Below are positions 6,797 through 39,284 of a stretch of 56,493 nucleotides of DNA, piece after piece. The stretch covers positions 1 to 56,493 of IMG/VR virus record IMGVR_UViG_3300038701_003149. One strand, written 5' to 3'. The notes beneath the pieces were generated by a model. The model ran no database searches and was not told the DNA's origin. It saw nothing but the letters and a program-made list of their open reading frames with translations. The DNA is from a virus. The position numbers and the translations under genes were made by a program. Every line of letters starts with the position of its first letter. Within the stretch, counting starts at the first letter, position 1.

Positions 6797-6976
6797 ATAT
6801 TCATATACCCGTAATTTTAGTTTGTTTAATGTTAATAAAATACGAATTACATTTCGTGTTTCTACCAAAACTATAGTTTCTCTGTAAGTGTTTGTCTAGC
6901 TTTATCTAATGAAAACTTGACATAAATTGCTATTTTTTCCGTCTAGTTATTTATCAATAAAAATACAAACTATACA

Positions 6977-24136: not shown

Positions 24137-24355
24137 TTATCTTCGAAAAGATCCTATAGGTGAAGGGAATTTATTTTTATTATCCATTTTGGATCCCTTT
24201 CCAACTTCATCCAGTATGCTTCCTGTCATGGTTGCGCTGTCTTCGGATAATTGAGTTTTATTTACTGGGACGTTCACCACATTTGAAGCGAAGTTTATCT
24301 GTACTTGACAAGATGAGAAAAAAACTGCAGCTGAGAATAATAAGATTTTTTTCAT
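24137..24355 (-). CDS. Outer-membrane lipoprotein, o-spanin-like (72 aa)
   Basis: MKKILLFSAAVFFSSC lipobox. Short mature part. Follows a TM/coiled-coil gene. I prefer ATG 24355 to 24433. Confidence 0.5.
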   Translation of the reverse strand: MKKILLFSAAVFFSSCQVQINFASNVVNVPVNKTQLSEDSATMTGSILDEVGKGSKMDNKNKFPSPIGSFRR

Positions 24356-24429
24356 GAACCTATTCCAATCATTCCCATTTCTACTAATCATTACTAATAC
24401 ATCATGGATCTGGTTAACTTTAACTTTAT

Positions 24430-24783
24430 TCATTTTTTATCTTTGAGTAATAAATCATAAATTTTGTCCTGTTTATCAAGGACTTTCGAGGTCTGCCTTT
24501 CTACTGTGTTTACTTGAGTTTTCATAACTGCTACATCAGTAGTTAGATCATTTATTTTGTCATCGAGCTTCTTTTTATTTTCTTCAGATTTTGTCTGAAG
24601 TCCTTTAAACCCAGTTTTAAGCTCTTTTAATTGTGTTTTATGACTATCGAGATCCCACCAAATTTTCCCTATACTTCCAACTAGAGCTGCTACAAGTAGG
24701 ACTAATTGAATCATTGAGGTAGCTTTTTTGACGAGCTTGTCAGTTTCATTGGAATTTTCTTCAGGTTCAACTTTTTCATGCAT
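24430..24783 (-). CDS. N-terminal TM + coiled-coil protein, i-spanin-like (or class III holin-like)
   Basis: MHEK... start overlaps the DUF1353 stop (ATGCATGA). TM MIQLVLLVAALVGSIGKIWW, then a heptad-rich tail. Confidence 0.45.
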   Translation of the reverse strand: MHEKVEPEENSNETDKLVKKATSMIQLVLLVAALVGSIGKIWWDLDSHKTQLKELKTGFKGLQTKSEENKKKLDDKINDLTTDVAVMKTQVNTVERQTSKVLDKQDKIYDLLLKDKK

Positions 24784-25294
24784 GGTTAAGATTCCTGTAA
24801 AATTTATTTTCTGTCTTTCTAAAACTGAATCGACCACCCATGCGAACTGCTCTATGCATAGCTCTAACTTTCCAGCCAGAATTTTGCTCGACAATTAAAA
24901 TGCCTTTAAAGATTAGATCTGTGGTTTTTTGGTCGAAAAACTCTTGTGCCTGATCGCTACTTAACTCTTCCCCATTAAGCCAGATTTTAACCCGTCCATG
25001 TATCTTTCCAAAAAGAGCATCATGGATTAAGGCGGCTACAATGAATCTAGGTGACAAAGGAAAGCCAACGACTCTCCAGAAAAAACGAGGTATACTAGCT
25101 CCATCAAAAATAAATAAAGCCGGAATAAATATTTCTACTTTGTGAACTACTCCATCTTCATCAATAAATGTGAAACAAAGGAAGTAGTCATTACGTAGGT
25201 AAAATTCTTGATCACTATCATATATTGGAATAATAGCAGGTCGTGGTGCTATTTCGGTCTCTTCAAAAGAGCTGTCTTTATATATAACGAGCAT
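24776..25294 (-). CDS. DUF1353-family protein
   Basis: FDGASIPRFFWRVVG...AALIHDALFG signature. Confidence 0.7.
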   Translation of the reverse strand: MLVIYKDSSFEETEIAPRPAIIPIYDSDQEFYLRNDYFLCFTFIDEDGVVHKVEIFIPALFIFDGASIPRFFWRVVGFPLSPRFIVAALIHDALFGKIHGRVKIWLNGEELSSDQAQEFFDQKTTDLIFKGILIVEQNSGWKVRAMHRAVRMGGRFSFRKTENKFYRNLNHA

Positions 25295-25387: not shown

Positions 25388-28300
25388 CTACCTTCTAATT
25401 CTGCGATTAGATCTAGATTTCTTCCTTCCTTCAGCACGTTCTTCTATATTGAAATTAGAGAAGTCTGCTAATTCTCTTTCCTCAATTTCACCGCTTAATT
25501 CTTTAGCCCTAAGAGCTTCACGGCGATTTCCTTTCTTCATTGACTCCATTACACCTCTAACCGATCTTGGAGTAATTTGAGGAATTGCAGAGTTACCAGT
25601 TCTTAAAACTTTGGCATTATAATCTTCAATCAATTTCAAGTGCTCTAACCAATCGGCTTGGGATCCACCATTGAGAATGAATCTACGGAGGCCATTATAA
25701 ATGCTAGATTTCCTATCCCGGTAAATCTTCTCCAATTGGAAGTCTTTCCATTGGCGCTCACGCTTCTCAGCTATACCTACAGGGTTAAATCCAAAGAACC
25801 TCCAAAGAGACTCTGAAGTTGAAGCCTTAAGCCTTTCATCACCGAAGTATACAGGCTGGTCTTTACTATTTGTTACTCCCTCAGTGTACTCTCTATGAGA
25901 CTTGAGGATAGTTGAAATATATTTAGGAGAAATACTTTCAAAACCTTTCTGAATATTACCGGAAAAAATTTGACCTATTCCAGTAAATACATCTTTTGCA
26001 GCTGATATTGAGGCCCCTCCAACATCTTCGATTGTTGTTGGAAGTTCAGTTCTCACAGCCAATGATCCTTTTAGAGAAACACCAAATTGACCAGCGACTC
26101 CAAATCTTGCTATTTCTTCTGCCTTCTCTCCAGCATATTCTTCAACAAACTGATAGAAAGCTTCTTCCAAATCATCCGGCTCTTCGAATCCCGGAACCAC
26201 AGAAGCTAATGCTTGAGCCATTGGTAAAAGAACTGAAGCAGAAGCACCAGCAAGTATACCTGGTGACAACATCATCCAAGCAGCTGCTTTAAGATCTCTA
26301 TCTTTACTACCGATTGACTGAGAAAGTAACTGAATATAGTTATGAGTGAAAGTTTGATACATGTAGAATGCACGACCAATCTGACCGCCACCTGAACCAC
26401 GAGCCCAAGCTGGAAGGTTGGCTTTTCCGTAAATACCATGGGCTTTGTCAGCTATTCGTTTTGATAGCTTTAAAAACTCTTCTCTTTTTGAGTCTGTTAA
26501 TTCACCTTCATGCTTATCAACTAAGCCATTGTATGCAGCTGCTATAGTTGAGGCTCTATTCAATCTCTCAGTTACAGAGAAAACAATCAATGATTTCTCT
26601 AAGATATTATTCCAAAGTTTACCGCCCCAATTTCGAGTTACATTTAAAGCTTCTTCATTCATTAAGTCCGAATCCCAACCTCGCTTGGTGATCTCATCAA
26701 ATACGAACTTCTGCTCTCCAGTAAGATCTTTACCTTTTCCGTATTTGTGATACATCATATATTTAGTGTAGTCTCTACCAGCTGAAGCAATGAGCCTTCC
26801 TGATTTACGTATGTTTATTCCACCAAATTGAGACATAGCGCCAGGCACAACAGTACCTAGAGCTGTTAAGTTGATTAATCCGGATGAAACACCAGAAAGA
26901 TATTTAAAAGCTGCTAGAGCTCTTAATTTACCAAATACTCTCTCACTTCCTTCTTCATTTCTTTGCATATCCTGCATATAGTGAAGAGCTTCCTTGAATG
27001 CCCGTGGTTGTTTATCCGACTCAATACTGCGATCGATTACAGCCTTTCTATACTCTGGCCATAACTTAGTTTTTGCATCGTAATATTCTTCAGTACCTTC
27101 AACAATTGATGGATCCAGTTTTTCTTTTAAGAAATCTTTCCATTTAAGATCACGACCTGTAATAGCCTCAACCATGTCTCGAGTCATATTTCTCTTGGCA
27201 GTACCACCAGCTGTCGCACGTACAGACATTGAAACTGCTCTCAGGGCATCTTCTTCAAATCCTAAGAAAACATCTTTTCCTTTGCGACCATCACGAGAAA
27301 TCTTTCTTGCTCTGGATCCACGAGAATGGAACATTACGGCCATCTGCTCAGCAAGAGCTTTACCGAACGCTTCAAATTCAAGAACTCTAGCACCATCCTG
27401 ATTGTGCATTGCACTCGCAAGTGATTTCTCAAGTAATGAAAGTCTATCTTTAGCTTTGTTTCTGAAGATCCATTTGTCACCTTCTTTTTTACCGCCAAAG
27501 CTCTCTAGTACGAGAGAGTACTTTTTAGCGTTTTGACCACTTACTATAAGGTTGTTCCTTTGTCTTCCGGCAGAATCCTTGTAAGCCTCAACCTCAGTTA
27601 CTAATCCAAGATCACTTAAATTATTTGCTTCAGCTTCAGCTCTAAGTAAAGCATTATTAACCAGGTCATTTATAGCAGCGATATTACCACCTTGTAAGAA
27701 TGCGTCTTGTGAAGGTTGGCCACTGATATCGTTCTCAATTGTGTAACCTTCTTTCCTTAGCTTTGCAGCTCTCAAAGATCTTTGAACTCTAGTATCAAAT
27801 AGCTCAAGCCTTGGGTTCTCACCTTCCTTTCTGGCCCAAAGCATTTGCTGACCAGTTCTAAGACGTGGCATATAGGATCCACGAAGATCTCCCATTTTCT
27901 TTAACTCTTCAAAAAGATCAAATAAGTTGGTATCTCCGATAACAGGATTTTCGACTCCGAATTTTTTTGACGACTCTTTTAGTTTTTCAACATTTCCTAA
28001 AAGCATATCATGCTGTCTGGTCATCATCTTTCTGATATCTAAAACAGCCTGGATAGCTTCATCTGACCACTTTTTAGACTTCTTCATATCACCAGACTCT
28101 AATAAGAAAGCATGATGCCAAGCTTTACTCTCTGAACCGTATTCAATATCATTAAATACTTTCTTTCCTTCAGGATTTATGATAGAGAATTTTCCACCTT
28201 CATCTTTAGACTCAACAACACGATAACCGATTTGATCTATATCACGCTTCCACAAATAATCGGACTGAAGCTTTTTCCATTCTTCTTTATTTTCCTTGGT

Positions 28301-31300
28301 GTACTTAACCAAGCTTTCAAAGTTGGATTCACCCTTACCATTTGCTTCATTGAACATCAGTCTTTCTAGGAGAACTTTATCATCACGCAGCTTATTTCCT
28401 GAATCAAAAATTCTTTTTAGAGCTGGTACTTTTTCACTAAAGAAAGAAATACTTCTTATAACTCGATCGAAAATTCCAAGATCACCTTTTTCTTTCTTAT
28501 TTGGTTGTTTGAAATTCTCATAAGCTTTAAGTGCAAAATCCCATGATCCGGCAATACGGCCACCATCTATCTTGGTTGCTTTTTCTAAAGCTTCTTCAGA
28601 GCGAAATAGTTCGTGTACACCCTCATAATTAGAAAGACCAGTTTCACCCCTTTCTGCCAGTTTTCCAGCTAAGGCCCGGTCGTAAATATCTTCAATAACA
28701 TCAATGGCACTTTCTTTGCCAAATAACATTTTTATTCTACGCAATAGACGATTTGCCCACACCTTAAGTTTACCTAAAGATGTTTGACTATTTATTGAGA
28801 ACTCATTTATTTTCTCAATAGCCTGCTCATGGGTTAAACCTAAGTCTAAAGTTGCTTGATCGAACTTCATTGCTTCTTGTTCAGTAAGTAGTAGATCATA
28901 TGCAAAGTGCATAGCTTCATGTCGGGCTGTATCTTCAGCATTTCCCTTACCTTCAGATATCTCAATAAATGAGTCTTTATAACGACCCATAACTTCTTTA
29001 CCTTCAGGACTGATTAACTTTTCTGAAAAGCTAACATTCTTAGTTCCAGTCATTCGTTTTACTAACTTAACAATCTTTGCCTTATCGCTTCTATTAAGTT
29101 CAGAATAATCTACTGAATCAACTACTGAATGCTCATCTCTATACAGCTCAATTCCTCCATCAGTCTCTTTTACCTCTATAGAATCAAATAGATTGTCAAA
29201 AGCCTTTTCTACTTCTGGAATTTCCTCTTTCAGTAAGTAAGGATATTTACCATTCCAAGATGGAGCATCATTACTTATATTGGCTAAATAATCATTACTG
29301 AAACCTTGATCGTTTAATTTCTTAATGATGTAGCTCTCGAAAGTTCTAGCAGCCATCTCAACAGTGGTTGACCAATAAGGCTTTGACCTGAGTTTATCTA
29401 AATCTTTTGATCTCTCAACTAGAGGAGAAGACATAATTTTTTGAACTAAGTCATTGAATGTTTTTCTAACTTCTTCTCTAATCTTTCCATTTGCTGAAGT
29501 CTGGTATGTGCCATTAACTTTTTCAGCCTTCTTAGCGAAATAATTATCCATAGCATGAAACCATTCATGAGCTAAAGATCCTGCCCCGTTTTTACGAGTT
29601 AGATTAATGACAACTTGACCAGGCTCAAAGTGTGCAGCAAATGAATTCTTACCGCCACGACCTCTAGCCCCAAAAGCCATAGCTAATTCACCATTGAGCG
29701 AAATGGATCTAGCCGGAATTTTTAGGATAGAAGATAAATCCATCAAAGCATCATAAGTCTCGTTTAAATGAGACTGTCTTTCCTTTTGAGTCATTGAATT
29801 ACCAAACTGGACTCCACGGAATCCAAATGCATTCTGGAATTCATCTGGTGAAACATCAGAGTTTTCTCTAAAGTTATCACCTACACGGATCCTATTTTCC
29901 TTCATTCTCATTTCAGGAATTTTTTTGATCTCTTCAAGCTTAGAAACCAAATAATCATAATCTTCAGACATTGCTTTCTTTAATTCTTGAAGGTCATTAG
30001 ACTCAACTACTGGAATATAATTTCTGCCAATTTTATGATTGATATAGTATTTTGACTGACCTTCTTCAGGTCTTCTTCTCATACGAATATCAAATTTAGG
30101 ACCTTTCTTTTTAGATTTTGGCTTATCAAGAAGATTAGGCATAACTTCTGTCTTAAACTTCTCAATAACATCATTAAGATTATCTGCTGTAGACATATTG
30201 CCTGAACCAGAATAACCCATGGTGATTACATCCAGACTTTTAGGATTATCGAAAACTTCACCTTTAAAAACAGAATATGATCCGGATTCTATTCTTAAAT
30301 CAGATAAATCGACATCATGGCCAAACTCTTTATAGAGTTCTGACTTTACGAATATCTTCTTATTGAAATTATTATGAGGAGGAAACAATTTTTCTTCAAA
30401 AAATCCAGGTGTTATCTCACCAGATATAAGATTAGAAATATTTCTTCTAGCCTTATTAACTTCAGATACCCAGTTAGAAATTCTATGTGACCTTCTTGGT
30501 TTATTAGGAATAGATTCTCTAATAGCTCTAACTAAACCGACTACTTTTTTATCTACTCCATCACTAACCATTTTCTTATAATTTGGTTTTGGTAAAGCTT
30601 TTGATAATGGTAGAGCTTTTACATCTGTTTCAACATCCAAAGATTTAGCGTAATCTTGCCATTCATGCTTTCGAGCGAACGGTATGACTTCGCCAAAGTC
30701 TTGTAATAAATCTGGATTCTTTTTATTAGATTCTGGTTTATTACTTTTTGATTGGATTTCTTCAGAACCAATGAAAGAACCATTTTCATCTAAGACTTCA
30801 TTTAAATCATCAGATTTATTGCTCTCTACTTCTTCAACTTTCTTTTTAGATTTATCTTTTTTTGACTTCTTTTTCTTTGGATCCGGCTTGGGATTTAATC
30901 CCTTTATTCCTCCAAAAGGTAAGTGAGCGAATCTTTTACCCGATACTCCAGAACTATGAACATCAATAACTTCAAAAGATCCTCCTCTGTGCTGAACAAT
31001 ATCGCCAACCTTAACATTGGATTGATTGAATTCAGCTGGACTATCTTCTTTAGATTTAGACTCTTCAGTAGTTTTTTTGCTATTTAAAATTTCCAAAGCC
31101 TCTGTAGCCAAAAGAACTCCATGCTCTGCATCTGCCTTAACCTTCTCAATAGGCATATTAAGATATGGGTTACTTTGTTTAGGTTCCTCTACCTCTTGCT
31201 CTTTAGAACTATCATCAATATTCAATTCATCTTCATTTAGACCGAGCTCTTTACCTCTTTCTTCAAATGCTTTTATTTCTGCTTCTGCCTGTTTTTCTCT

Positions 31301-33259
31301 TTCTTGCTGCTCTTCAGCTTTATCAATTTCTAAGTCAGCTGTTGATTGTCCATCACTTTCTAGTTTGTTAGCAAGAGATTCAGTTCTATTTTTATAAAGA
31401 AGGTATTCTTGATAACGAGTGGATTTTGACTCAATTGTACCTGGCAACTCAAACCTTCTAAAGGCTTTTTCCATTTCATCTTTATTTCTCAAGTAGGCTC
31501 TATTTAGTCGATCGCCTTTGAGTCTTTTTATGTAATTCTCAGAATAAGGTGCAAGTGTATTTTTATTGCCAATACCTATCTCGAGTCCATATTGAGCTAC
31601 ACTTGCATTAGCAAGCTCTATTGCCTGATCATTAATACTTTTTTCCTGAACAACTTCTTCTGTTTCTTGAAGATTAGGTTCCTGTAATTGCTCAACTTGA
31701 GATTCCTGCTGAATATCACTTTCTTCTTGAATTGTTTCTATAGGATCCAAGCTGAAGTTATTAGATTCAGGAATAATTTCTTGAGAAACTTCATCTTCTA
31801 ATTGTGGTTGTACTTCATTAACTTCTTCCAGCGTTTCTTGAACAGAAGCTTGATCAATATTTTCGTTTAATTCAGCAGCTCTAAATTCATCAAACTCTTT
31901 TTCTTCAGCTAAGTAATCTTCGAATATTTTAGTCTGTGCTTCTGGAGTTAATTTACCAAAGTCATCAGTTTGGTTGGCAACGACTCCCATATCAAGAGTA
32001 GGAATCTCAATTCCATTTTCACCAGGTATAATTTCACTTTTTACCGGAGCACTTGGCCTTTCCCTGAATGATTCAATCGTCTTGGATCCTATTCTTAATG
32101 GACCTCCAACCAGTGCTCCGGCAGCTGCTTGCTCCATCCACTCCATAAAAGTTTCTTTGCTGGTGATTTCAAAATTAGGATCATTGACTTCTTTATTTAA
32201 TGAAGATAAAAATCCTTGAAAAGCTTCTTGGCCACCCTCAGCTGCCGATGATTTCATGACATCGAACATCCAACCCATAGCCTTTTTCATTCCACTCTCT
32301 TTAGCTTTTTGTTTTACAGCATGAGAAATAGGTGAACGCATAAATTGTTTCATAATATCTGGAACAGCACCAAACATTGATTCAGAAGCACCAGAAACTA
32401 AACCAAATAACAAAGATGTCATTGGAGCGTCAATTCCATGATCTCTTGAAAGCTCTGCAAAATTACTACCGGCTTCTGTTAAGCCTATAGCTAGTCCACC
32501 ACCTACTTTTGCAGAAAGACTTTTAACAGCATTCCTTACTACTTCTTTTTCAATTTGAGGTGTAACAAGAGCTTTAGCAGCTGCTATTTCTATTCCTTCT
32601 TTATTAGCTAGATCACGAATATATTTTTTAATAGCTCCTTTGGCGAAAATACCTGATACAGCACCAGCAGGAGCAGCGACTAAATCATCTGGACCTATAC
32701 CTGGTACTACTTGCGATCCAGCAACGGCTCCAGCTGCACTGAAAGTAACAGCTTCAAGAATGGAAGGTAAAGCTTCACCAATGGCTTGAGGTATAGCAGT
32801 GATAAAATTACCAGCACTACCGAATGCACCTTTTTCACCACCACTAATAAAAGAATCAATTGGTACGTATGTCTCAGAAGCTTCTTTTTGGTTTTCAGAA
32901 AAACCTTTTAATCCAAAATCCTTAAGACCTTCTGAACCCACTAAATCACCAAATAATCCTGAAAGTCCATAAGCAGAAGCTTGAAGATTATCGACACCTC
33001 GAGAAAAACCACGGCCAAGAGTTTTAAGTAAACTGGGGTTTTTAATAAAGTCTCTACGACTTCTTTCCGTTTTAATCTCTCTTTGTTTGATTTGATCATC
33101 AGTTTCAAAGTTGTAGTAATCACCATCTTTTTCTAGATAACCACGATCTTGAAGAAAATGTTTAGCATTGCGATCTACACCAGTTCTATCTTTGTCGAAA
33201 CTCAATTCATCAAAGCTTATATCCAATCCATTAAAGTCTGGCATGTTACTGAGCTCCAC
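25388..33259 (-). CDS. Giant (2,623 aa) virion/ejection-type polyvalent protein with two HExxH zincin-like motifs
   Basis: Uninterrupted ORF. G/A-rich hydrophobic N- and C-terminal segments. FGFRGVQFGN...AFGARGRGG...LAHEWFHAMD (29555-29569) and ARHEAMHFAYD (28907-28921). Confidence 0.65.
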   Translation of the reverse strand: MELSNMPDFNGLDISFDELSFDKDRTGVDRNAKHFLQDRGYLEKDGDYYNFETDDQIKQREIKTERSRRDFIKNPSLLKTLGRGFSRGVDNLQASAYGLSGLFGDLVGSEGLKDFGLKGFSENQKEASETYVPIDSFISGGEKGAFGSAGNFITAIPQAIGEALPSILEAVTFSAAGAVAGSQVVPGIGPDDLVAAPAGAVSGIFAKGAIKKYIRDLANKEGIEIAAAKALVTPQIEKEVVRNAVKSLSAKVGGGLAIGLTEAGSNFAELSRDHGIDAPMTSLLFGLVSGASESMFGAVPDIMKQFMRSPISHAVKQKAKESGMKKAMGWMFDVMKSSAAEGGQEAFQGFLSSLNKEVNDPNFEITSKETFMEWMEQAAAGALVGGPLRIGSKTIESFRERPSAPVKSEIIPGENGIEIPTLDMGVVANQTDDFGKLTPEAQTKIFEDYLAEEKEFDEFRAAELNENIDQASVQETLEEVNEVQPQLEDEVSQEIIPESNNFSLDPIETIQEESDIQQESQVEQLQEPNLQETEEVVQEKSINDQAIELANASVAQYGLEIGIGNKNTLAPYSENYIKRLKGDRLNRAYLRNKDEMEKAFRRFELPGTIESKSTRYQEYLLYKNRTESLANKLESDGQSTADLEIDKAEEQQEREKQAEAEIKAFEERGKELGLNEDELNIDDSSKEQEVEEPKQSNPYLNMPIEKVKADAEHGVLLATEALEILNSKKTTEESKSKEDSPAEFNQSNVKVGDIVQHRGGSFEVIDVHSSGVSGKRFAHLPFGGIKGLNPKPDPKKKKSKKDKSKKKVEEVESNKSDDLNEVLDENGSFIGSEEIQSKSNKPESNKKNPDLLQDFGEVIPFARKHEWQDYAKSLDVETDVKALPLSKALPKPNYKKMVSDGVDKKVVGLVRAIRESIPNKPRRSHRISNWVSEVNKARRNISNLISGEITPGFFEEKLFPPHNNFNKKIFVKSELYKEFGHDVDLSDLRIESGSYSVFKGEVFDNPKSLDVITMGYSGSGNMSTADNLNDVIEKFKTEVMPNLLDKPKSKKKGPKFDIRMRRRPEEGQSKYYINHKIGRNYIPVVESNDLQELKKAMSEDYDYLVSKLEEIKKIPEMRMKENRIRVGDNFRENSDVSPDEFQNAFGFRGVQFGNSMTQKERQSHLNETYDALMDLSSILKIPARSISLNGELAMAFGARGRGGKNSFAAHFEPGQVVINLTRKNGAGSLAHEWFHAMDNYFAKKAEKVNGTYQTSANGKIREEVRKTFNDLVQKIMSSPLVERSKDLDKLRSKPYWSTTVEMAARTFESYIIKKLNDQGFSNDYLANISNDAPSWNGKYPYLLKEEIPEVEKAFDNLFDSIEVKETDGGIELYRDEHSVVDSVDYSELNRSDKAKIVKLVKRMTGTKNVSFSEKLISPEGKEVMGRYKDSFIEISEGKGNAEDTARHEAMHFAYDLLLTEQEAMKFDQATLDLGLTHEQAIEKINEFSINSQTSLGKLKVWANRLLRRIKMLFGKESAIDVIEDIYDRALAGKLAERGETGLSNYEGVHELFRSEEALEKATKIDGGRIAGSWDFALKAYENFKQPNKKEKGDLGIFDRVIRSISFFSEKVPALKRIFDSGNKLRDDKVLLERLMFNEANGKGESNFESLVKYTKENKEEWKKLQSDYLWKRDIDQIGYRVVESKDEGGKFSIINPEGKKVFNDIEYGSESKAWHHAFLLESGDMKKSKKWSDEAIQAVLDIRKMMTRQHDMLLGNVEKLKESSKKFGVENPVIGDTNLFDLFEELKKMGDLRGSYMPRLRTGQQMLWARKEGENPRLELFDTRVQRSLRAAKLRKEGYTIENDISGQPSQDAFLQGGNIAAINDLVNNALLRAEAEANNLSDLGLVTEVEAYKDSAGRQRNNLIVSGQNAKKYSLVLESFGGKKEGDKWIFRNKAKDRLSLLEKSLASAMHNQDGARVLEFEAFGKALAEQMAVMFHSRGSRARKISRDGRKGKDVFLGFEEDALRAVSMSVRATAGGTAKRNMTRDMVEAITGRDLKWKDFLKEKLDPSIVEGTEEYYDAKTKLWPEYRKAVIDRSIESDKQPRAFKEALHYMQDMQRNEEGSERVFGKLRALAAFKYLSGVSSGLINLTALGTVVPGAMSQFGGINIRKSGRLIASAGRDYTKYMMYHKYGKGKDLTGEQKFVFDEITKRGWDSDLMNEEALNVTRNWGGKLWNNILEKSLIVFSVTERLNRASTIAAAYNGLVDKHEGELTDSKREEFLKLSKRIADKAHGIYGKANLPAWARGSGGGQIGRAFYMYQTFTHNYIQLLSQSIGSKDRDLKAAAWMMLSPGILAGASASVLLPMAQALASVVPGFEEPDDLEEAFYQFVEEYAGEKAEEIARFGVAGQFGVSLKGSLAVRTELPTTIEDVGGASISAAKDVFTGIGQIFSGNIQKGFESISPKYISTILKSHREYTEGVTNSKDQPVYFGDERLKASTSESLWRFFGFNPVGIAEKRERQWKDFQLEKIYRDRKSSIYNGLRRFILNGGSQADWLEHLKLIEDYNAKVLRTGNSAIPQITPRSVRGVMESMKKGNRREALRAKELSGEIEERELADFSNFNIEERAEGRKKSRSNRRIRR

Positions 33260-34613
33260 CTTTCTTTTTACCTAGGTATTCTTGGAGTTTTCTTTCTGCT
33301 TCCTGTAGTCTTTTTGGATTAGAATTCTGAAGTGATTTAGCCAGCATTAAGCCACCACCTAGAGTACTAGGAGATTCGAAAGTTCTCGCTAAACCTCTAC
33401 TAGTGCCTAGGGCATTTCGTTCACGTTTAACAGCTTCAGATAATTCAATAAGCTTAGGATCCGCTTGTTTAACCATTTCAAGGATTTGATTACCCTGAGT
33501 GGAGTTTCCAATATTCACTTGGCTTAGATCAATTCCTTGTTGATTCAGGAACTCTTGTACTTCCACACCTCTTCGAGCAATAGATACTGGATCATCGCCC
33601 TTAAAATTACCAGCAACATCAAGAGCTCCTTGAACACCTTGTTGAAGTTTGGCTACTTGCTTATCTCTTTCAGGGTTTCTTGCATTTGGGTTAACCCTGT
33701 ATAAGTGAGACGCATTTTCATGAATCGATCTTTTTGCATCTTCAAGTTCAATTTTTTCGTCACCGGAAATATCTTCACCAAGATTTTCCAATTCATTGAT
33801 TCTATTCTGTATATTAGATTGATTGTTTCCAAGAATATCACTTCCGGCTTGTTTTACTGCATCCACTTCAGATAAGCCATTCTTCATCAATTCTTTCACT
33901 GTACCGAAGTAACGATCCCCTTCTCTCGTAAAATTGCCAGACTCATCAATAAATTTAGAAGTATCAATTCCAAGGTGCTTAGCTCTAGCTTCAAGATAAC
34001 CATCATCTAATTTATCAATTCGATTTAAATCAGATTTTCTTTTTTCTGCTTCTGCCTGAAGACCAGCTATCTCTCTTCTAGTATTATTGGTTTCATCAAA
34101 TCTACGATTATCTTCTTCAAACCTTTTTTCATTAAGACCTTGTGCATCTTTTGCTAATCCTAACCGTTCTTTCTGGATGCCCTGGCTAAACTCCTGGCTA
34201 TTTTGTGCTAGTCCAACTTTTTGTTTAGCTAGATCCTTATTAAACTGTGCATCTTCTCTGCTAGCTTCAAAGGCTCTTTCTTTTAAACCAAAAGAACGAT
34301 CGTTATTTTCTAAACTTATTTCAAAATTTCTCTGATCTATTCCACGTTTATATTGCTGATCCTCTAATCTATCTTCTCTATTTTGAGCTGCTTGACGAAA
34401 TGAAGCATCTCTATACTGTCCCTGATTTACCAAACCAGAAGATCTACGAGATTGATTAACAATATTAAAAGCTGGAGATAAAGATGTGGTTGTCCTTTGA
34501 AGTCCATTTTTTACTGTCGCATTTCCAGCAATTTGATTCATACGTCTTCTTCTGGCTAACCCTTGAAGCTTTTTAGAATTTAAATTTGTAGATGTAGGTG
34601 CATTTCCAATCAT
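33246..34613 (-). CDS. Internal virion/ejection protein candidate (455 aa, Q/N/R/E-rich)
   Basis: Coupled (14-nt overlap) to the giant gene. Low-complexity helical sequence. Confidence 0.5.
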   Translation of the reverse strand: MIGNAPTSTNLNSKKLQGLARRRRMNQIAGNATVKNGLQRTTTSLSPAFNIVNQSRRSSGLVNQGQYRDASFRQAAQNREDRLEDQQYKRGIDQRNFEISLENNDRSFGLKERAFEASREDAQFNKDLAKQKVGLAQNSQEFSQGIQKERLGLAKDAQGLNEKRFEEDNRRFDETNNTRREIAGLQAEAEKRKSDLNRIDKLDDGYLEARAKHLGIDTSKFIDESGNFTREGDRYFGTVKELMKNGLSEVDAVKQAGSDILGNNQSNIQNRINELENLGEDISGDEKIELEDAKRSIHENASHLYRVNPNARNPERDKQVAKLQQGVQGALDVAGNFKGDDPVSIARRGVEVQEFLNQQGIDLSQVNIGNSTQGNQILEMVKQADPKLIELSEAVKRERNALGTSRGLARTFESPSTLGGGLMLAKSLQNSNPKRLQEAERKLQEYLGKKKGGAQ

Positions 34614-34700
34614 AGTAATTGCCTCAGATAAATATTAGCTGTATTGATTATATTAATATATAACACATATATCATTATTTTAAATGATACTAACTAATTA

Positions 34701-36527
34701 TTAACTAGTGGAATACAGGTAGTTGTCGCCAGAAATGAAATTGTTTACGTCATTGATATCTATAGTTCCCCAAACTAAAGACTCGATAGTAGTAGTACTT
34801 ATCTGGCCATTTGCTCCATTGGAACCACTTGAACCACTTGAACCAGATATAAAAGTAACATTTACTATGCTAGTAAAATGTGCTATAAACCCAAAATATG
34901 AATCAGGTAAAGTAACCCTATCCAGTCCTGAATTATATAAAAATGTATGATCTGTGTCTCCCGCTGAAGCCCCGCTTCTACCAGTACCACCACTTCCAGC
35001 AGTTCCATAGAAAGTCGAGCCAGCATCACCACCATCTCCTCCGTCTCCTCCATCTCCAGACGTAATAGTAGTACCTGAAGGGAAAGAATGACTTTGTGAT
35101 GAGCTGTGGCCATCTAACAAGTCATATCCCATATCTTGAAACATTCCAAAGTTATCGACATCTTCATCCCAGCCTACAACTTCTTCTATAACGTGTTGAC
35201 CTCTAAATGCACCTTCACCATTACCGCCATTACCAGCACGACCAAATAATGAATTGCCTCCATTAGGTCCATCCCTTCCGCTTCTCTTACGTCCTGTAAT
35301 ATTTAAATCTGTATAATCTGGATTTCCTGAAGAGGGATTCTTATGTTCGAATTCATGTGTAGATTCATAGTTTAAACCATCACCACCTTCACAATCTTCT
35401 GCATTAGTGTCTAAAGAGCACGAAACTTTTGAAACATTAGACATCGAAGAACATTTTATTACTGGATCAATATAAAACAGTGTTGCATCTCCAGCATCAA
35501 AACTAAATCCTGGAGCCAAACCATAAAACTCTTGATTCATTTGATCATCGTGACCGGAAGTGCCATTGATTGTATAATCAACAGAATCAAAAATTATATT
35601 TTTAAATGTGGCAGAAGGTGTATTGATAACAGGTCCAACTTCAATTTTACCTCCCCAGCGAGTTACATGAGCTAATACTCTATTTATACTATAAGTTCTG
35701 CTTAAATTTCTAAATGTGCAGTATTCAAATTCAAAAGGAGAATTAGTTCCTATTACAAAATCTGAAGAACCTACAGTTTGAGTATTTGACGATAAATCTT
35801 GTTCATCAACTTCGCTTAATTCATCTAAGTCAAATATACAGTTTTCGAATTTAATATTTACAATATCAGAATTTGTAAACTCTATAAATGTATCTTCATC
35901 GGTGAAAAGGAAGCCATCAAAAAGAGTTTGGCTATGATCAATTTCAGCATCATCAAAATCAAAAATTTGAAGTGTATTAACTTCGCAATAATCGCTTACA
36001 GTTCGATCGTTATGGCTTTCATACTCCTCTTTCATGCCTCCATATATCTTAATGTGTGGAGCGTGTCTGTTTTCAAAATAACGAAAATCTGTTGTTCCTG
36101 ATTGATTACCTTTAACCCAAATGGGGAATTTCTTCATTATTTCAATTTCTTCAGCCTCAGTCATATCTTCATCTATCAAAGAATTAAATAAAACTTTATA
36201 AGCTGACATAGCTTGTTCTATGTTAGGCCAAGCAGTTTCCCAGGTTAAACCATCATTGCTACTATGAGTAAACTTATCAAAGTCTACATGAATAGCTTGA
36301 AAGACAATCTCTTCTTCCTCCTCTTCTTCTGGCGGTCTAAGACTGAGAAGATAATCAACTTCCAATTCAAGTAAGTTAAATTCTTCCTGGAGTCTTGTGT
36401 CATCATACTCTGGATTATCTATGGTAGGAACTTCAATAGAAAGCCTTTGCTGCAATTCCCTAAAAAGTCTACTCTTTGTATGACTTGCTTTTATTGTTTC
36501 TGGTAAAAATGGCGAAGAAAAACTCAT
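34701..36527 (-). CDS. Tail fiber/spike-like protein with poly-E and Gly-rich tracts (608 aa)
   Basis: EEEEEEE. DGLTWETAWPNIEQA (beta-helix-type N-cap motif). GDGGDGGDGGDAG, SGSSGSSGSNGANG. Confidence 0.55.
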   Translation of the reverse strand: MSFSSPFLPETIKASHTKSRLFRELQQRLSIEVPTIDNPEYDDTRLQEEFNLLELEVDYLLSLRPPEEEEEEEIVFQAIHVDFDKFTHSSNDGLTWETAWPNIEQAMSAYKVLFNSLIDEDMTEAEEIEIMKKFPIWVKGNQSGTTDFRYFENRHAPHIKIYGGMKEEYESHNDRTVSDYCEVNTLQIFDFDDAEIDHSQTLFDGFLFTDEDTFIEFTNSDIVNIKFENCIFDLDELSEVDEQDLSSNTQTVGSSDFVIGTNSPFEFEYCTFRNLSRTYSINRVLAHVTRWGGKIEVGPVINTPSATFKNIIFDSVDYTINGTSGHDDQMNQEFYGLAPGFSFDAGDATLFYIDPVIKCSSMSNVSKVSCSLDTNAEDCEGGDGLNYESTHEFEHKNPSSGNPDYTDLNITGRKRSGRDGPNGGNSLFGRAGNGGNGEGAFRGQHVIEEVVGWDEDVDNFGMFQDMGYDLLDGHSSSQSHSFPSGTTITSGDGGDGGDGGDAGSTFYGTAGSGGTGRSGASAGDTDHTFLYNSGLDRVTLPDSYFGFIAHFTSIVNVTFISGSSGSSGSNGANGQISTTTIESLVWGTIDINDVNNFISGDNYLYSTS

Positions 36528-36781
36528 GGTCTAAATCCAAGCCTTTCATAATTTTGTGTATATCTAAGTACAGCTCTGCGAAGATCTCCTATTGCCTGGA
36601 ACATTTCAGAGTCATCATAAACTTGAATATCTGTATCAATAGAATCAATTTCAGCATCAAGGCGCACAGTTTCTTCCTGAAGTTCTCGAAACAACTGAGT
36701 TTCTTGAGGTGTTAAATCAGGTTGAAAAGGATTGGTAAATCCTGTTTTATGGTCAGTTCTTTCACGTTTGACCTGCGCCAT
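36524..36781 (-). CDS. Small structural/adaptor protein (85 aa)
   Basis: Shares the PF.P...LFRELQ...ID..YDD segment with the N-terminus of the next gene. Confidence 0.5.
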   Translation of the reverse strand: MAQVKRERTDHKTGFTNPFQPDLTPQETQLFRELQEETVRLDAEIDSIDTDIQVYDDSEMFQAIGDLRRAVLRYTQNYERLGFRP

Positions 36782-36788
36782 AGATCAC

Positions 36789-39284
36789 CTACTTAAGTTT
36801 TGCCATGCTTGTTGCTACGGCAAATTCACGAACAACACTGCCATTTTCATCTACTTCAAAAGTGAACTTCTTCATTAGCTTAGAATGTGGAAGTCTTCTC
36901 GGTTTTTCATTGGTAAAAGAAATTGTGTATAACTCATCATTATCTCCAAAGAATTTAACCTTTACTGGATATCCTGTAGAGAATACCTGAGCACATGAGA
37001 ATGAAATAGGTTTCAGAGTATCATATACTTTTATATCCCATGGACCTACAGAAGGATCACTTCTAAATTCATGTATTTTATCTTTTATGATTTGTCTTGA
37101 TCTTGAAAATAAAGTAAGACTTTCAATTGGAGTGGATATATCATTTTCTATAGAAACTCTCCATAAAGTTCCATCTGGAACATGTTCCGGAAGTTTGAAA
37201 ACTCTTCCAGAATGAATCAATGCATTATGAACTAATCCTTCTGACTCATGAAAGAACCTTATAGATACAGGTTTATTATTTTCCGTAGTAACAATACCAC
37301 CAGAAAAAGCGCCCACATCAGAAAATTTTAACCAACTTATCTTCCACACTGGATTATTTGATTTCGTTAAGTTTATGGACTGCCCCATGGCAATAATATT
37401 TCTTTCAAAAGCCTGAAAGCTTCTAACTTCAACATTTCCTACCAGCTCGAATTCCCAATCAATTCCATGAGATAAATTTTCAAGGACAACCGGATTATAA
37501 TCTTTAGCTGTAAATGTTCCTGCTAAAGAACCGTCAACATAAATTTTTATAGTTACATCTCCGTCAGCATCTACTTTGCAGTAATCAAAAATTTCTGGAT
37601 GAGTAAAATGATACTTTTTTGATCTCCAAGTAAAGCCTGAAGTATTTGAAGTATCAGTAAACGTGGTAATTGCCTGAATAGTTTCGTCTATATCGAAACG
37701 AAGATTAACCAGGTTACCCTCTAAAAATATACTGTTATCTGCAACTTTAGCTGAAAATGTTTCAGGAAGTAAATCAAGCCATTCAGTTCTTGTGTAATAC
37801 TCACTCGTAAGATTTCTTACGCTTGATCCGGATGTAGCAAAAAGACCGTCATGTGAAACATAGAAAATTGTATTCCCAATTCTACATAGAGATTTCTTAT
37901 CTAAGAGCGGATTCACATTTGTAACAAGATACTTATTCATCCTTGCAGGATCCCCACCAGACACAACAAATACATCTTCATTGGTATATACAATAATACT
38001 TCCACCTGAAAGCATGATTGCCTCAATATTGTTTGCGAATGTAACTGTGTATTCATCCGGCCAAACATGATACTTATAAAAGTCAGAAAAATATAAAATG
38101 TTATCTTTAAATGCTACTCCAAATTGACCTGGATGTATTAAACTTCCTTCAATAAATGATTGTAGGTTAGCTTCTCCAACTACAGGAGCATTACCAAAAG
38201 GAGGTAAAGAATCTCTTAATGGAAGGAATTCTGTATCAGTAAATTCATCGTCATCTACTTCTGCAAGTAACCTAAACCCGTCACCGGATCCTGATCGGTA
38301 AAGGTTATTAAAAATATAACCATCTTCTAAATCAACTCTATTTGTGTTTAGAGTAGGTATTTGACCGGGTAAAAGCTCAACGGCTTCTGATATTTCAGAA
38401 GGGATACTTTCAATGTTTAAATTGCGATCTTTAAGATAAGTTTGAACATAGTAATAAGTTCTTCTTTTCGGCACAGAGTAATTCATATTTATCGTGAAAG
38501 TTACTTGTCCGGCAATGAAAGTTTCATTAAGAGTTCCATTTCCTGAAGGATTTGTAATTGTCTTATCGATTGGGAAAAAATCTGCATCCTCAACTTCAAA
38601 GTATCCATAGATTACACCCTGCTCAAAATCTTCATTATCATTTATGTTGATAATATTTGCATCTGGCTTAGGAGTTCTATAAACAAGAGGAATCCTTCCC
38701 CTTGGTATTGTTGAGGTGTAACCTCTTCCTAACTGAGTAGGAAGGTAAAAATTTTCGTCTGGACTTCCGTTAAAAGGTGAATTGACCAAAAGAAATTGGA
38801 ATACAGGAGAAATTATTTGATAAGTAAATCCATCTGGTAGACTTAGATTAATTGCCGGAATATCAAAAGTTATCCTCATTCCAGTTTCGGTGTAAACAAC
38901 TTTACTTGGAGTAGAGAAGCCGTGACCATTAGTTTCATGAACTATGTCATCAAAGGTGTTACCAGCAAGATCCGCAGAAACTTTAGCTACATAAATAGAA
39001 CGTCTAACCCCAACCCATTGATCTAAATTCCTTGCGAAATAATCAATATCTTTTATCAAAGGAGGAATTGGTTGTGGAGTATGAAATACAGAGTTCTCAT
39101 CCAACTCACCTTCTATTCTGCCATCATCACCTTTTAAATCAAAAAAAGGCGTGTCTACGCTTATTGGTCTAAGGGATTGACTTACCAAATCGCAATTTTC
39201 CGCTTTCTGAGCTCCCGTTGGTGGAAGTTCATTCGGATTTAATTTGGGAATAATCCCACCAAATCTTGCAAGATCTATAGGCAT
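36789..39284 (-). CDS. Large tail protein (831 aa), possibly tail tubular B/nozzle-like
   Basis: N-terminus FGGIIPKLNPNELPPTGAQKAENCDL...LRP resembles the T7 gp12 N-terminal pattern. Size is similar. Confidence 0.4.
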   Translation of the reverse strand: MPIDLARFGGIIPKLNPNELPPTGAQKAENCDLVSQSLRPISVDTPFFDLKGDDGRIEGELDENSVFHTPQPIPPLIKDIDYFARNLDQWVGVRRSIYVAKVSADLAGNTFDDIVHETNGHGFSTPSKVVYTETGMRITFDIPAINLSLPDGFTYQIISPVFQFLLVNSPFNGSPDENFYLPTQLGRGYTSTIPRGRIPLVYRTPKPDANIININDNEDFEQGVIYGYFEVEDADFFPIDKTITNPSGNGTLNETFIAGQVTFTINMNYSVPKRRTYYYVQTYLKDRNLNIESIPSEISEAVELLPGQIPTLNTNRVDLEDGYIFNNLYRSGSGDGFRLLAEVDDDEFTDTEFLPLRDSLPPFGNAPVVGEANLQSFIEGSLIHPGQFGVAFKDNILYFSDFYKYHVWPDEYTVTFANNIEAIMLSGGSIIVYTNEDVFVVSGGDPARMNKYLVTNVNPLLDKKSLCRIGNTIFYVSHDGLFATSGSSVRNLTSEYYTRTEWLDLLPETFSAKVADNSIFLEGNLVNLRFDIDETIQAITTFTDTSNTSGFTWRSKKYHFTHPEIFDYCKVDADGDVTIKIYVDGSLAGTFTAKDYNPVVLENLSHGIDWEFELVGNVEVRSFQAFERNIIAMGQSINLTKSNNPVWKISWLKFSDVGAFSGGIVTTENNKPVSIRFFHESEGLVHNALIHSGRVFKLPEHVPDGTLWRVSIENDISTPIESLTLFSRSRQIIKDKIHEFRSDPSVGPWDIKVYDTLKPISFSCAQVFSTGYPVKVKFFGDNDELYTISFTNEKPRRLPHSKLMKKFTFEVDENGSVVREFAVATSMAKLK

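What the first reader, a model, noticed from the sequence alone, without database searches (positions are those of the whole stretch)
25388..33259. 2,623-aa giant late protein with two zincin HExxH motifs: candidate injected polyvalent protein
A single uninterrupted ORF takes about 14% of the genome. It is the last structural gene before the lysis-like genes. The N-terminal region (about aa 140-400) and the C-terminal region (about aa 2150-2450) are Gly/Ala-rich and hydrophobic, resembling membrane-inserting ejection or tape-measure-like segments. The middle contains FGFRGVQFGNSMTQKERQSHLNETYDAL...AFGARGRGG...INLTRKNGAGSLAHEWFHAMDNYF (HExxH at 29555-29569). I recognise this as the type of block found in large polyvalent proteins of phages and conjugative elements. 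A second motif, ARHEAMHFAYD, lies at 28907-28921. A DFGEVIPFARKHEW block is also reminiscent of polyvalent-protein modules. The protein occupies the genome slot that holds the giant virion RNA polymerase in N4-type phages, yet I found no T7-like RNAP motifs. It may instead deliver protease or anti-defence activities with the DNA.
Basis: partly seen in the sequence, partly recalled or inferred. Interest (0 to 1): 0.7.

Follow-up and report, generated by a model that had tools for sequence, protein, structure and literature searches.

The report
Giant cargo-carrying phage ejection protein
This 2,618-residue gene of an uncultured short-tailed phage is a new member of the known "polyvalent" giant proteins that phages pack into the capsid and probably inject with their DNA; its conserved end modules enclose a swappable middle that here carries two predicted zinc proteases.

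Summary
An uninterrupted 2,623-codon ORF lies at 25388-33259 on the minus strand. Its likely start is the ATG at 33244, giving 2,618 aa. It takes 14% of a complete ~56.4-kb phage genome. Both HExxH motifs are at the stated coordinates.

Pfam finds LPD5 and LPD1. The first HExxH lies in a CLCA_X-type zincin domain. The second lies in a small zincin of the same type as the HExxH domain of the phage N4 virion RNA polymerase. No RNA polymerase, methylase or helicase domain was found.

New here is the layout. An N-terminal module with no Pfam or PDB match (2,435 clusters) and a ~1,060-aa helical C-terminal module (NCBIfam PLxRFG) enclose the variable cargo. The distal half of the C-terminal module is homologous to the internal virion protein gp6 of Vibrio phage ICP2. 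Relatives keep both ends and replace the middle with helicase or pyrophosphatase domains. The order of parts matches N4 vRNAP. The gene follows three internal-virion-protein genes.

Giants sharing the cassette (phi24B gp47) or only the genome slot (JC1 gp69) are found in virions by proteomics. Packaging, ejection and protease activity were not tested for this protein.

Verdict: new member of a known kind, of moderate interest.

The parts
25388..33259 (-). Giant ORF: 2,623 codons from the GTG; probable start at the ATG at 33244, giving 2,618 aa
32000..33052 (-). N-terminal module (aa ~70-420): Gly/Ala-rich, with hydrophobic helices. A conserved family found at the N-terminus of giant proteins.
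   Evidence: Alignment A3. A profile search found 2,435 clusters with E <= 1e-3. The module starts within the first 100 aa in 144 of the best 150, whose median length is 2,611 aa. No Pfam match and no PDB match. Weak hit to phrog_6958, 'virion structural protein'.
30710..31972 (-). Acidic, low-complexity, poorly conserved linker (aa ~430-850)
   Evidence: D+E is 20-27% per 100 aa. Only patchy similarity even to the closest relative, P0002.
29891..30712 (-). First part of the cargo cassette (aa 850-1123): a helical domain starting with the DFGE..ARK block, then the LPD5 alpha/beta domain
   Evidence: Pfam LPD5 at aa 999-1144. Conserved D854, F855, G856, K864 and others. AF2 pLDDT is mostly 80-93. 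About 31-41% identity to giants of Stx phages, Pseudoalteromonas phage Y3 and Bacillus phage Dartukuta.
29135..29890 (-). CLCA_X-type zincin domain (aa 1124-1375). HEWFH is at aa 1231 (window 29555-29569). Pfam LPD1 is its C-terminal half.
   Evidence: NCBIfam NF041907, E = 1.6e-41, profile positions 2-243 of 250. HEW.H..D and a downstream E are conserved in 24 sequences. The AF2 element order is strand-helix-strand-strand-HExxH helix-...-Glu helix, with pLDDT about 90. Family described in PMC3650047.
25391..28582 (-). C-terminal module (aa 1560-2623), mostly alpha-helical. It contains the G.Y.PR.R motif (aa 1794-1801) and hydrophobic helices at aa 2124-2142 and 2327-2352. The NCBIfam PLxRFG domain covers aa 1999-2570 (window 25550-27265).
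   Evidence: NF032893 scores 114.9 bits against a cut-off of 100. Alignment A2 has 50 invariant columns. AF2 model: helical, mean pLDDT 67. Foldseek against BFVD matches the last fragments of giant phage proteins (E down to 1e-20) and ICP2 / CRP-4 internal virion proteins (about 1e-7). hhalign to ICP2 gp6 gives probability 94.7% and E = 5.9e-8. Klebsiella phage LASTA gp01 matches at E = 5e-96.
33246..39284 (-). Three upstream genes, probably internal virion / ejection proteins (455 aa, 608 aa, 831 aa). The 455-aa gene ends 1 nt before the giant's ATG.
   Evidence: The 831-aa protein matches phrog_511, 'internal virion protein', at 7e-60. It is similar to BcepIL02 gp63 and LASTA gp07. The same gene order occurs in L003 and L002.

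Best explanation
**What it is.** The gene encodes a virion-internal 'polyvalent' ejection protein of a ~56-kb podovirus. Its order of parts matches the giant virion RNA polymerase of phage N4, with a different cargo in place of the polymerase.

**Layout, from N to C terminus**
1. A Gly/Ala-rich, partly hydrophobic N-terminal module (aa ~70-420).
2. A long acidic linker (aa ~430-850).
3. A cargo cassette (aa 850-1375): a helical domain, LPD5, and a CLCA_X-type zincin that includes Pfam LPD1.
5. A ~1,060-aa helical C-terminal module (NCBIfam PLxRFG domain). Its distal half is homologous to the C-terminus of ICP2 gp6-type internal virion proteins.

**Proposed mechanism (inferred)**
- A few copies are packed into the procapsid together with the three internal virion proteins encoded just upstream.
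- On infection the protein is threaded, largely unfolded, through the portal and tail after those proteins.
- The end modules dock it to the trans-envelope conduit and the inner membrane.
- The middle cargo reaches the cell interior.
- One or both zincins cut the polypeptide into working pieces, or cut host targets.

**Shown versus inferred**
- Shown here: the domain homologies, motif conservation, the pattern of conserved ends with a swappable middle, and synteny.
- Inferred: packaging, ejection, membrane association, protease activity and protease targets.
For: - **Domains.** Pfam LPD5 and LPD1 pass their cut-offs. CLCA_X matches at E = 1.6e-41 and PLxRFG at 114.9 bits, above its cut-off of 100.
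- **HExxH motifs.** Both are conserved across homologs, each with a downstream Glu. Two such motifs by chance has P = 0.0005.
- **Zincin-like order of elements.** The AF2 model of the cassette is confident. Its element order matches the zincin core described by Iyer et al.: a three-stranded sheet, the HExxH helix, then a Glu helix.
- **Conserved ends, variable middle.** P0003 to P0006 share aa 6-650 and aa 1383-2623 with this protein but carry SNF2/helicase or InPase domains in between. Of 195 collected giants, 33 have the N-module at the N-end and the C-module at the C-end, with roughly 770-4,100 aa between them.
- **N-module distribution.** 2,435 clusters; N-terminal in 144 of the best 150.
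- **C-module relatives.** The model matches the terminal fragments of giant phage polyvalent proteins in BFVD, plus ICP2 and CRP-4 internal virion proteins. hhalign to ICP2 gp6 gives 94.7% probability over 446 columns.
- **Synteny.** The giant follows three internal-virion-protein genes at the end of the portal-MCP-tail operon, and this order is conserved in relatives.
- **Virion proteomics of giants in this slot.** phi24B gp47, whose type shares the middle cassette, and JC1 gp69, positional parallel only.
- **A related gene matters for infection.** Knock-down showed that the polyvalent gene of phage PTXU04 is critical for efficient infection.
- **N4 model.** A membrane-binding NTD, a low-complexity linker, the cargo, the HExxH C1 subdomain and a large helical C2 subdomain, ejected last.
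Against: - There are no virion data for this phage.
- Of the two proteomics-verified giants, the phi24B gp47 type shares only the middle cassette with this protein (Stx phage P13374 gp78). No homology was shown with the Bcep22-group giants: BcepIL02 gp70 matched none of the module profiles.
- Foldseek found no PDB match for either model (best E = 0.13 and 0.8). The zincin folds are therefore not structurally confirmed.
- The C-module shows no detectable similarity to N4 gp50 C2 or T7 gp16. The parallel with N4 is one of layout, not homology of the ends.
- The hydrophobic segments are only moderately hydrophobic (Kyte-Doolittle maximum 1.54).
- According to Iyer et al., N4 vRNAP is packaged unprocessed. 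Self-cleavage is therefore not a given.
Confidence: 0.6

Rival explanations
1. It is a packaged ejection protein, but its two zincins act in the periplasm as cell-wall or envelope-directed peptidases. They would clear the way for the tail conduit, as the authors proposed for phi24B gp47. There is no cytoplasmic cargo and no self-processing.
For: - The phi24B authors propose that the metallopeptidase degrades peptidoglycan.
- Relatives carry peptidoglycan-related domains in the same kind of protein, according to the precomputed Pfam lists: PF01464 in P0008 and PF01476 in P0003. The names SLT and LysM for these accessions come from memory.
- T7 gp16 carries a lytic domain.
Against: - Neither zincin matches a known peptidoglycan peptidase family in Pfam.
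- Sister proteins with the same end modules carry helicase, SNF2 and pyrophosphatase cargo, which only makes sense in the cytoplasm.
Confidence: 0.2
2. It is not packaged. It is a late- or early-expressed cytoplasmic multi-domain enzyme, for example a protease acting on host or phage proteins, that merely sits next to the structural genes.
For: - There are no direct virion data for this phage.
- Large phage proteins are sometimes non-structural.
Against: - It is co-oriented with the preceding internal-virion-protein gene, whose stop codon lies 1 nt before the giant's ATG.
- The C-module is homologous to ICP2 gp6-type internal virion proteins.
- The two giants in this genome slot for which proteomic data were found are in virions.
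Confidence: 0.07
3. It is a tape-measure or other tail-length or structural tail protein.
For: - Its great length.
- Its Gly/Ala-rich helical stretches.
Against: - No tape-measure family was hit in Pfam or PHROGs.
- The genome has podovirus-type genes: an N4-gp56-type capsid protein and internal virion proteins. No tail tube or sheath genes were found.
- The relatives are giants of podoviruses.
Confidence: 0.02
4. It is a divergent virion RNA polymerase like N4 gp50.
For: - It occupies the same genome slot and has the same overall layout.
- It shares the type of HExxH domain.
Against: - Pfam finds no RNA polymerase domain at E <= 1.
- The middle is fully accounted for by LPD5 and CLCA_X domains with a confident model.
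Confidence: 0.01

Closest known systems
Phage-type polyvalent proteins (Iyer, Burroughs, Anand, de Souza, Aravind 2017, PMC5512222)
   Same: - A giant single polypeptide encoded among virion genes.
- It combines LPD5 and LPD1 with zincin-like metallopeptidase domains.
- It is predicted to be packaged and delivered with the DNA.
   Different: - This member has no recognisable nucleic-acid enzyme: no methylase, helicase, ART, RNase or RNAP domain.
- Its N-terminal module is not in Pfam.
- Its C-terminal module is defined only in NCBIfam, as PLxRFG.
Stx-phage phi24B gp47 and 933W-type 'LPD5 domain-containing protein' (for example P13374 gp78, 2,806 aa)
   Same: - It shares the whole middle cassette of helical domain, LPD5, CLCA_X zincin and LPD1. 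Identity is about 31% over aa 852-1462, and the profile E-value is 2e-160.
- It is the last large gene of a podovirus structural module.
- gp47 was detected in virions by proteomics.
   Different: - Its N- and C-terminal regions are not detectably the same with HMMER.
- hhalign gives only a weak hint for the N-terminus: probability 45%.
PLxRFG / 'DarB-like' giants of ~60-kb podophages (Klebsiella Lastavirus LASTA gp01, 4,433 aa; Erwinia PEp14; Serratia Parlo; Pseudomonas Skulduggery and Itty13; Sinorhizobium PBC5)
   Same: - The same C-terminal module: LASTA gp01 matches at E = 5e-96 over aa 3528-4402 of 4,433.
- The same genome position after an 'internal virion protein' homologous to the window's 831-aa protein.
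   Different: - They are annotated DarB-like (DNA methylase / antirestriction) rather than as carrying LPD5 or CLCA_X; their cargo domains were not scanned here.
- The window's N-module was not detected in LASTA gp01 with the N-module HMM. tblastn found it in no phage record of the collection.
Phage N4 virion RNA polymerase gp50
   Same: - The same slot in an N4-like order of structural genes.
- The same order of parts: a membrane-associated N-terminal domain, a low-complexity linker, cargo, a small HExxH domain and a ~1,100-aa helical C-terminal domain.
   Different: - Its cargo is a T7-like RNAP, which is absent here.
- Its N- and C-terminal domains show no detectable sequence similarity to those of this protein.
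- N4 needs the polymerase for early transcription. This phage encodes no RNA polymerase of its own.
Vibrio phage ICP2 gp6-type 'internal virion protein' (1,416 aa; Zobellviridae)
   Same: - Its C-terminal ~490 aa are homologous to the distal half of the C-module: hhalign probability 94.7%, E = 5.9e-8; Foldseek E = 1e-7.
- It is the last large gene of a podovirus structural module.
   Different: - It is much shorter.
- It appears to be the end module alone, without cargo.
CLCA_X zincin family (Lenart et al. 2013, PMC3650047)
   Same: - The whole 250-position NCBIfam profile aligns.
- The HExxH..D active-site motif is conserved.
- The family is known mainly from phages, prophages and plasmids, often in very long proteins.
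   Different: - The score (142 bits) is below the curated whole-protein cut-off (260 bits). This is a domain-level relative, not a member of the stand-alone subfamily.
- Protease activity has not been shown for any member mentioned in that paper.

Membership tests
Phage-type polyvalent protein (Iyer et al. 2017) | Two or more domains of the polyvalent inventory in one large polypeptide | tested here: met
   Pfam LPD5 scores 79.3 bits and LPD1 66.5 bits. Both cut-offs are 27.
Phage-type polyvalent protein (Iyer et al. 2017) | A zincin-like metallopeptidase domain with HExxH and a downstream Glu | tested here: met
   - Two such domains are present, with the motifs conserved in homologs.
- CLCA_X matches at E = 1.6e-41.
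- The fold is not confirmed by Foldseek.
Phage-type polyvalent protein (Iyer et al. 2017) | Encoded among virion morphogenesis genes | tested here: met
   It is the last gene of the TerL - portal - MCP - internal-virion-protein operon.
Phage-type polyvalent protein (Iyer et al. 2017) | Packaged in the virion and delivered into the host | not testable with these tools
   Only by analogy with giants in the same slot: phi24B gp47, whose type shares the middle cassette, and JC1 gp69.
PLxRFG domain protein (NCBIfam NF032893) | Score at or above the curated cut-off | tested here: met
   114.9 bits against a cut-off of 100, over aa 1999-2570.
CLCA_X family (NCBIfam NF041907) | Score at or above the curated whole-protein cut-off | tested here: not met
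   142.4 bits against a cut-off of 260. The profile is nevertheless covered at positions 2-243 of 250, with E = 1.6e-41. This makes it a domain-level homolog only.
CLCA_X family (NCBIfam NF041907) | HExxH followed by a conserved Asp | tested here: met
   HEWFHAMD is conserved as HEW.H..D in 24 sequences. The paper writes the motif as HExxHxxxD.
N4-type virion RNA polymerase | A T7-like single-subunit RNAP domain | tested here: not met
   No RNAP family was found in Pfam at E <= 1.
N4-type virion RNA polymerase | An HExxH (C1) domain after the cargo | tested here: met
N4-type virion RNA polymerase | N- and C-terminal domains homologous to gp50 NTD and C2 | tested here: not met
   hhalign probabilities are 4% for the NTD and 0.1% for C2.
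DarB-like antirestriction protein | An adenine methyltransferase plus an SF2 helicase | tested here: not met
   Neither domain was found in Pfam.
T7 gp16 internal virion protein D | Sequence or profile similarity to gp16, including its lytic transglycosylase domain | tested here: not met
   - hhalign probability is 12%.
- There is no SLT hit.
- A protein named 'internal virion protein D' from Roseobacter phage CRP-4 does match by fold, at E = 6.5e-7.
ICP2 gp6-type internal virion protein | Homology of the C-terminal region | tested here: met
   - hhalign probability 94.7%, E = 5.9e-8, 446 columns.
- hmmsearch E = 3e-7.
- Foldseek against BFVD, E = 9.8e-8.
Tape measure protein | A tape-measure family match and a long-tailed gene set | tested here: not met
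   No such family was hit in Pfam or PHROGs. The gene set is of podovirus type.

The most novel reading that the evidence does not exclude
Probability: 0.35. Interest if true: 0.6.

Novelty: new member of a known kind. Interest (0 to 1): 0.35.

Why it matters
Giant polyvalent proteins take 14-22% of the genome in many ~60-kb podophages, including Shiga-toxin phages, yet none of their non-enzymatic parts has a known role.

This case shows which parts are constant: the N-module, the junction zincin in the closest relatives, and the C-module related to internal virion proteins. It also shows which part is exchangeable cargo. That gives concrete targets for testing how a ~290-kDa protein is packed and threaded into a cell. 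It also gives a candidate for an engineerable protein-delivery scaffold.

For this particular gene, the result is mostly a confirmation that it belongs to an already described class.

Tried and rejected
- **megablast of the gene against 50,697 phage records:** no match.
- **phmmer and profile searches of the whole protein and of each module (A1, A2, A3) against PDB sequences:** nothing meaningful.
- **Foldseek of both AF2 models against PDB:** no hit better than E = 0.13 and 0.8. The zincin fold could not be confirmed structurally. The multi-domain models could not be cut into single domains with the tools at hand.
- **tblastn of the N-module against phage records:** no match.
- **Genome-collection scan for host identification:** The scan with the N-module alone returned one irrelevant weak hit. 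The host remains unknown.
- **hhalign of the N- and C-module profiles against T7 gp14/15/16, N4 gp50 NTD and C2, and BcepIL02 gp70:** not significant. Homology of the end modules with those proteins is rejected at this sensitivity.
- **Stx gp78 N-terminus against the N-module:** probability 45%, left as a hint only.
- **Weak A3 hit to N4 gp51:** judged to be compositional.
- **Tape-measure, vRNAP and DarB readings:** rejected because their defining domains are absent.
Full report
**1. The observation**

The window has one uninterrupted minus-strand ORF at 25388-33259, 2,623 codons from a GTG. The real start is probably the ATG five codons in, at 33244. Three facts support this:
- The JGI gene call for this same contig (P0001, 2,618 aa, 100% identical) starts there.
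- Homologs P0002 and P0005 also begin 'MPD...'.
- The ATG lies 1 nt after the TAA of the upstream gene, with a GGAG 9 nt upstream.

The window has a 127-bp exact terminal direct repeat. It is therefore a complete, circularly assembled ~56.4-kb genome, and the ORF takes 14% of it.

HEWFH (aa 1231) and HEAMH (aa 1447) lie exactly at the coordinates given. From the protein's composition, 0.04 HExxH motifs are expected, and two or more occurred in only 0.05% of 20,000 shuffles. Gly+Ala reaches 27-32% in aa 101-300 and 21-23% in aa 2101-2400. Moderately hydrophobic 19-mers lie at aa 163-185, 2124-2142 and 2327-2352.

**2. Genome context**

The minus-strand operon reads, in order:
- small terminase (54120-54698)
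- TerL (50784-52268)
- portal (48224-50176)
- major capsid protein (45214-46233)
- several virion proteins
- an 831-aa 'internal virion protein' (phrog_511, 7e-60)
- a 608-aa protein
- a 455-aa protein
- the giant

The capsid protein is 42% identical to that of Pseudoalteromonas phage vB_Pun_Y3, which is annotated as N4-gp56 family. That phage has a 3,421-aa giant at the same position. The order is the same as N4 gp59 ... gp56 ... gp52-gp51-gp50.

The plus-strand arm encodes helicases, a primase-helicase, an AAA_24 protein and a C5 methylase. No RNA or DNA polymerase was found.

Downstream of the giant lie:
- a DUF1353 protein
- a spanin-like pair
- a membrane transglutaminase-like protein
- an AHH-nuclease toxin-like protein
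- a pseudopilin-like protein

The three genes upstream of the giant are conserved in the same order in the closest relatives, L003 and L002. The 831-aa protein also matches BcepIL02 gp63 and LASTA gp07.

**3. What the protein is made of**

*Middle cassette.*
- Pfam finds LPD5 (aa 999-1144) and LPD1 (aa 1287-1362), both well above their cut-offs, and nothing else at E <= 1.
- NCBIfam adds a CLCA_X match: aa 1124-1359, E = 1.6e-41, profile positions 2-243 of 250, below the whole-protein cut-off. It also adds the PLxRFG domain: aa 1999-2570, 114.9 bits against a cut-off of 100.
- CLCA_X is a predicted zincin family, a sister of the CLCA metalloprotease domain. It is known mostly from phage, prophage and plasmid proteins, many of them very long (PMC3650047).
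- In 24 homologs, HEW.H..D and a later Glu (TVEMAARTFESY region) are conserved.
- An AF2 model of aa 840-1560 is confident over aa 850-1375, with pLDDT mostly 80-95. The order of its elements is strand, helix, strand, strand, HExxH helix, inserted helices, Glu-bearing helix. This matches the zincin core as described by Iyer et al..
- Foldseek of the whole model found nothing in PDB (best E = 0.13). The fold is therefore supported by family membership and topology, not by a structural match.

- It is shared with relatives that lack the LPD5/CLCA_X cassette.
- In an alignment of 22 diverse ones, H1447, E1448, H1451 and E1478 are invariant.
- Single members weakly hit Peptidase_M78 (5.6e-5), Peptidase_M48 and the putative metallopeptidase DUF6782.
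- hhalign to the CLCA_X alignment lines up the strand-strand-HExxH stretch, at P = 3.8e-4.
- The same HMM aligns to N4 gp50 aa 2195-2352 with HExxH and the Glu in register. That stretch is the HExxH-bearing C1 subdomain (aa 2124-2375) of the N4 vRNAP structure. Iyer et al. assigned it to the zincin-like metallopeptidases.
- AF2 confidence is low for this region.

*The two ends.*
- BLAST against the first set of homologs showed a mosaic. P0003, P0004, P0005 and P0006 (2,972-4,400 aa) share aa ~6-650 and aa ~1383-2623 with this protein. Between these regions they carry SNF2/ResIII/helicase and InPase domains instead of LPD5/CLCA_X.
- A profile of the N-module (aa ~70-420) found 2,435 clusters at 50% identity with E <= 1e-3, and 232 with E <= 1e-30. 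In 144 of the best 150 the module starts within the first 100 residues. The median length of those 150 proteins is 2,611 aa and the maximum is 5,497 aa.
- The N-module has no Pfam, PDB or phage-isolate (tblastn) match. It has only a weak hit to a PHROG labelled virion structural protein.
- The C-module (aa 1560-2623) is predicted mostly alpha-helical (mean pLDDT 67) and has no PDB match.
- In BFVD it matches the last fragments of giant phage proteins at E = 1e-20 to 1e-12 and TM about 0.5. These are named 'large polyvalent protein-associated domain', methylase or helicase proteins. It also matches unsplit ~1,400-aa proteins at about 1e-7: Vibrio phage ICP2 'coil containing protein' and Roseobacter phage CRP-4 'internal virion protein D'.
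- ICP2 gp6 is the last large gene of that podovirus's structural module and is annotated as an internal virion protein. hhalign of the C-module profile to it gives probability 94.7% and E = 5.9e-8 over 446 columns.
- Klebsiella phage LASTA gp01 (4,433 aa, PLxRFG / 'DarB-like') has the same C-module at E = 5e-96. tblastn also finds it in PEp14, Parlo, Skulduggery, Itty13 and PBC5.

**4. How it most likely works**

The layout is: N-module, ~400-aa acidic linker, cargo, small HExxH domain, ~1,060-aa helical C-module. N4 gp50 has the same order:
- a membrane-binding NTD with predicted membrane-spanning helices
- a ~100-aa low-complexity linker
- the RNAP
- the C1 subdomain with HExxH
- a ~1,100-aa helical C2 subdomain with no known relatives

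For N4 gp50 there is experimental support for packaging, ejection after gp52 and gp51, and anchoring to the inner membrane through the NTD.

Giant proteins in the same genome slot were detected in virions by proteomics. phi24B gp47 carries LPD5, LPD1, LPD38 and a metallopeptidase, and its authors propose that it is an ejection protein. Burkholderia phage JC1 gp69 gave 51 unique peptides. In phage PTXU04, knock-down of the polyvalent gene showed it is critical for efficient infection.

I therefore conclude, with confidence of about 0.6, that this is a capsid-packaged ejection protein. Its conserved ends would serve packaging and docking to the conduit and membrane. Its middle would be delivered cargo. 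The homologies, motif conservation, modularity and synteny are shown. Packaging, ejection, membrane insertion and proteolysis are inferred.

What the LPD5 + CLCA_X cargo does is unknown. Self-processing, cleavage of host targets and envelope digestion all remain open. N4 vRNAP is reported to be packaged unprocessed, so self-cleavage should not be assumed.

**5. Limits and negative results**

- The Stx-phage giant shares only the middle cassette, not the end modules. BcepIL02 gp70 (Bcep22 group) matched none of the module profiles.
- hhalign gives only a hint (45%) that the Stx N-terminus is related to the N-module.
- There is no significant similarity of the end modules to T7 gp16 or to N4 gp50 NTD and C2.
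- The host could not be identified.
- In a 4.4-Mb bacterial contig, a homolog lies in a prophage and is split by an ISL3 insertion.

**6. Comparison and verdict**

This is a new member of the phage-type polyvalent proteins of Iyer et al. 2017. It combines the LPD5 - CLCA_X/LPD1 cassette of the Stx-phage and Y3 giants with the PLxRFG C-terminal module of the Lastavirus and PEp14-type giants. It also carries an N-terminal module known only from metagenomes and prophages.

It is not a vRNAP, not DarB-like, not a tape measure and not a detectable T7 gp16 homolog.

The added value here is threefold:
- the pattern of conserved ends around a swappable middle
- the link of the C-module to plain internal virion proteins
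- the link of the second HExxH domain to the N4 C1 domain

Interest is moderate (0.35). The class is known and this member adds no new enzymology. The end modules it shares with many other giants have no assigned function, however, and they can be tested directly.

Noticed in passing
window 21550-22662 (-) and 21074-21553 (-): A 370-aa protein has a signal peptide, an Rhs-core-tip-like stretch (YSSEYGRWLNRDPIGVAGGINTYNSV) and a C-terminal AHH nuclease domain (Pfam 1.3e-7). It looks like a polymorphic-toxin tip carried by a phage. The following 159-aa ORF has no matches and sits where an immunity gene would be.
   Followed up: partly
window 18874-20115 (-); L003 18944-19909: A 413-aa protein has a prepilin-type N-terminus (FTLLELILVVFILGLI) and a T2SS protein G domain (2.3e-10). 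A homolog (33% identity) lies directly downstream of the giant gene in the related contig L003.
   Followed up: partly
window 24137-24894 (-): A spanin-like pair. One ORF has a TM helix followed by a coiled coil (24430-24894). A 98-aa ORF has a lipoprotein signal, '...FFSSC' (24137-24433). No endolysin or holin was identified nearby. The DUF1353 protein (24776-25294) overlaps the first ORF.
   Followed up: no
window 22659-24059 (-): A 466-aa protein has an N-terminal TM helix and a transglutaminase-like core (Transglut_core2, 2.4e-7). It lies between the lysis-like genes and the toxin-like gene.
   Followed up: no
window 1-127 and 56367-56493: A 127-bp exact direct repeat at the two ends of the window. 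The contig is a circularly assembled, complete genome of about 56.4 kb.
   Followed up: yes
L002 10001-23902: In a 4.4-Mb bacterial contig the homologous giant gene lies in a prophage next to two integrases. It is split into 2,972-aa and 1,184-aa ORFs, with two small ORFs between them, one an ISL3-family transposase gene.
   Followed up: partly
window 32000-33052 (-), aa 70-420 of the giant: The N-terminal module defines a large family: 2,435 clusters at 50% identity, almost always at the N-terminus of 2,000-5,500-aa proteins. It has no Pfam model and no solved structure, so it is a candidate for a new domain definition.
   Followed up: partly
window 25388-33259 (-): JGI labels this protein 'ribosomal protein S13', an evident misannotation. 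Homologs in isolate genomes carry unrelated automatic names, for example 'DdrB-like ParB superfamily domain' and 'putative methyltransferase'.
   Followed up: no
window 15955-17241 (+) and 6314-6868 (-): The phage encodes a C-5 cytosine DNA methylase (4e-37), possibly for self-protection against restriction. It also encodes an HTH_3 repressor-like protein. No integrase was recognised.
   Followed up: no
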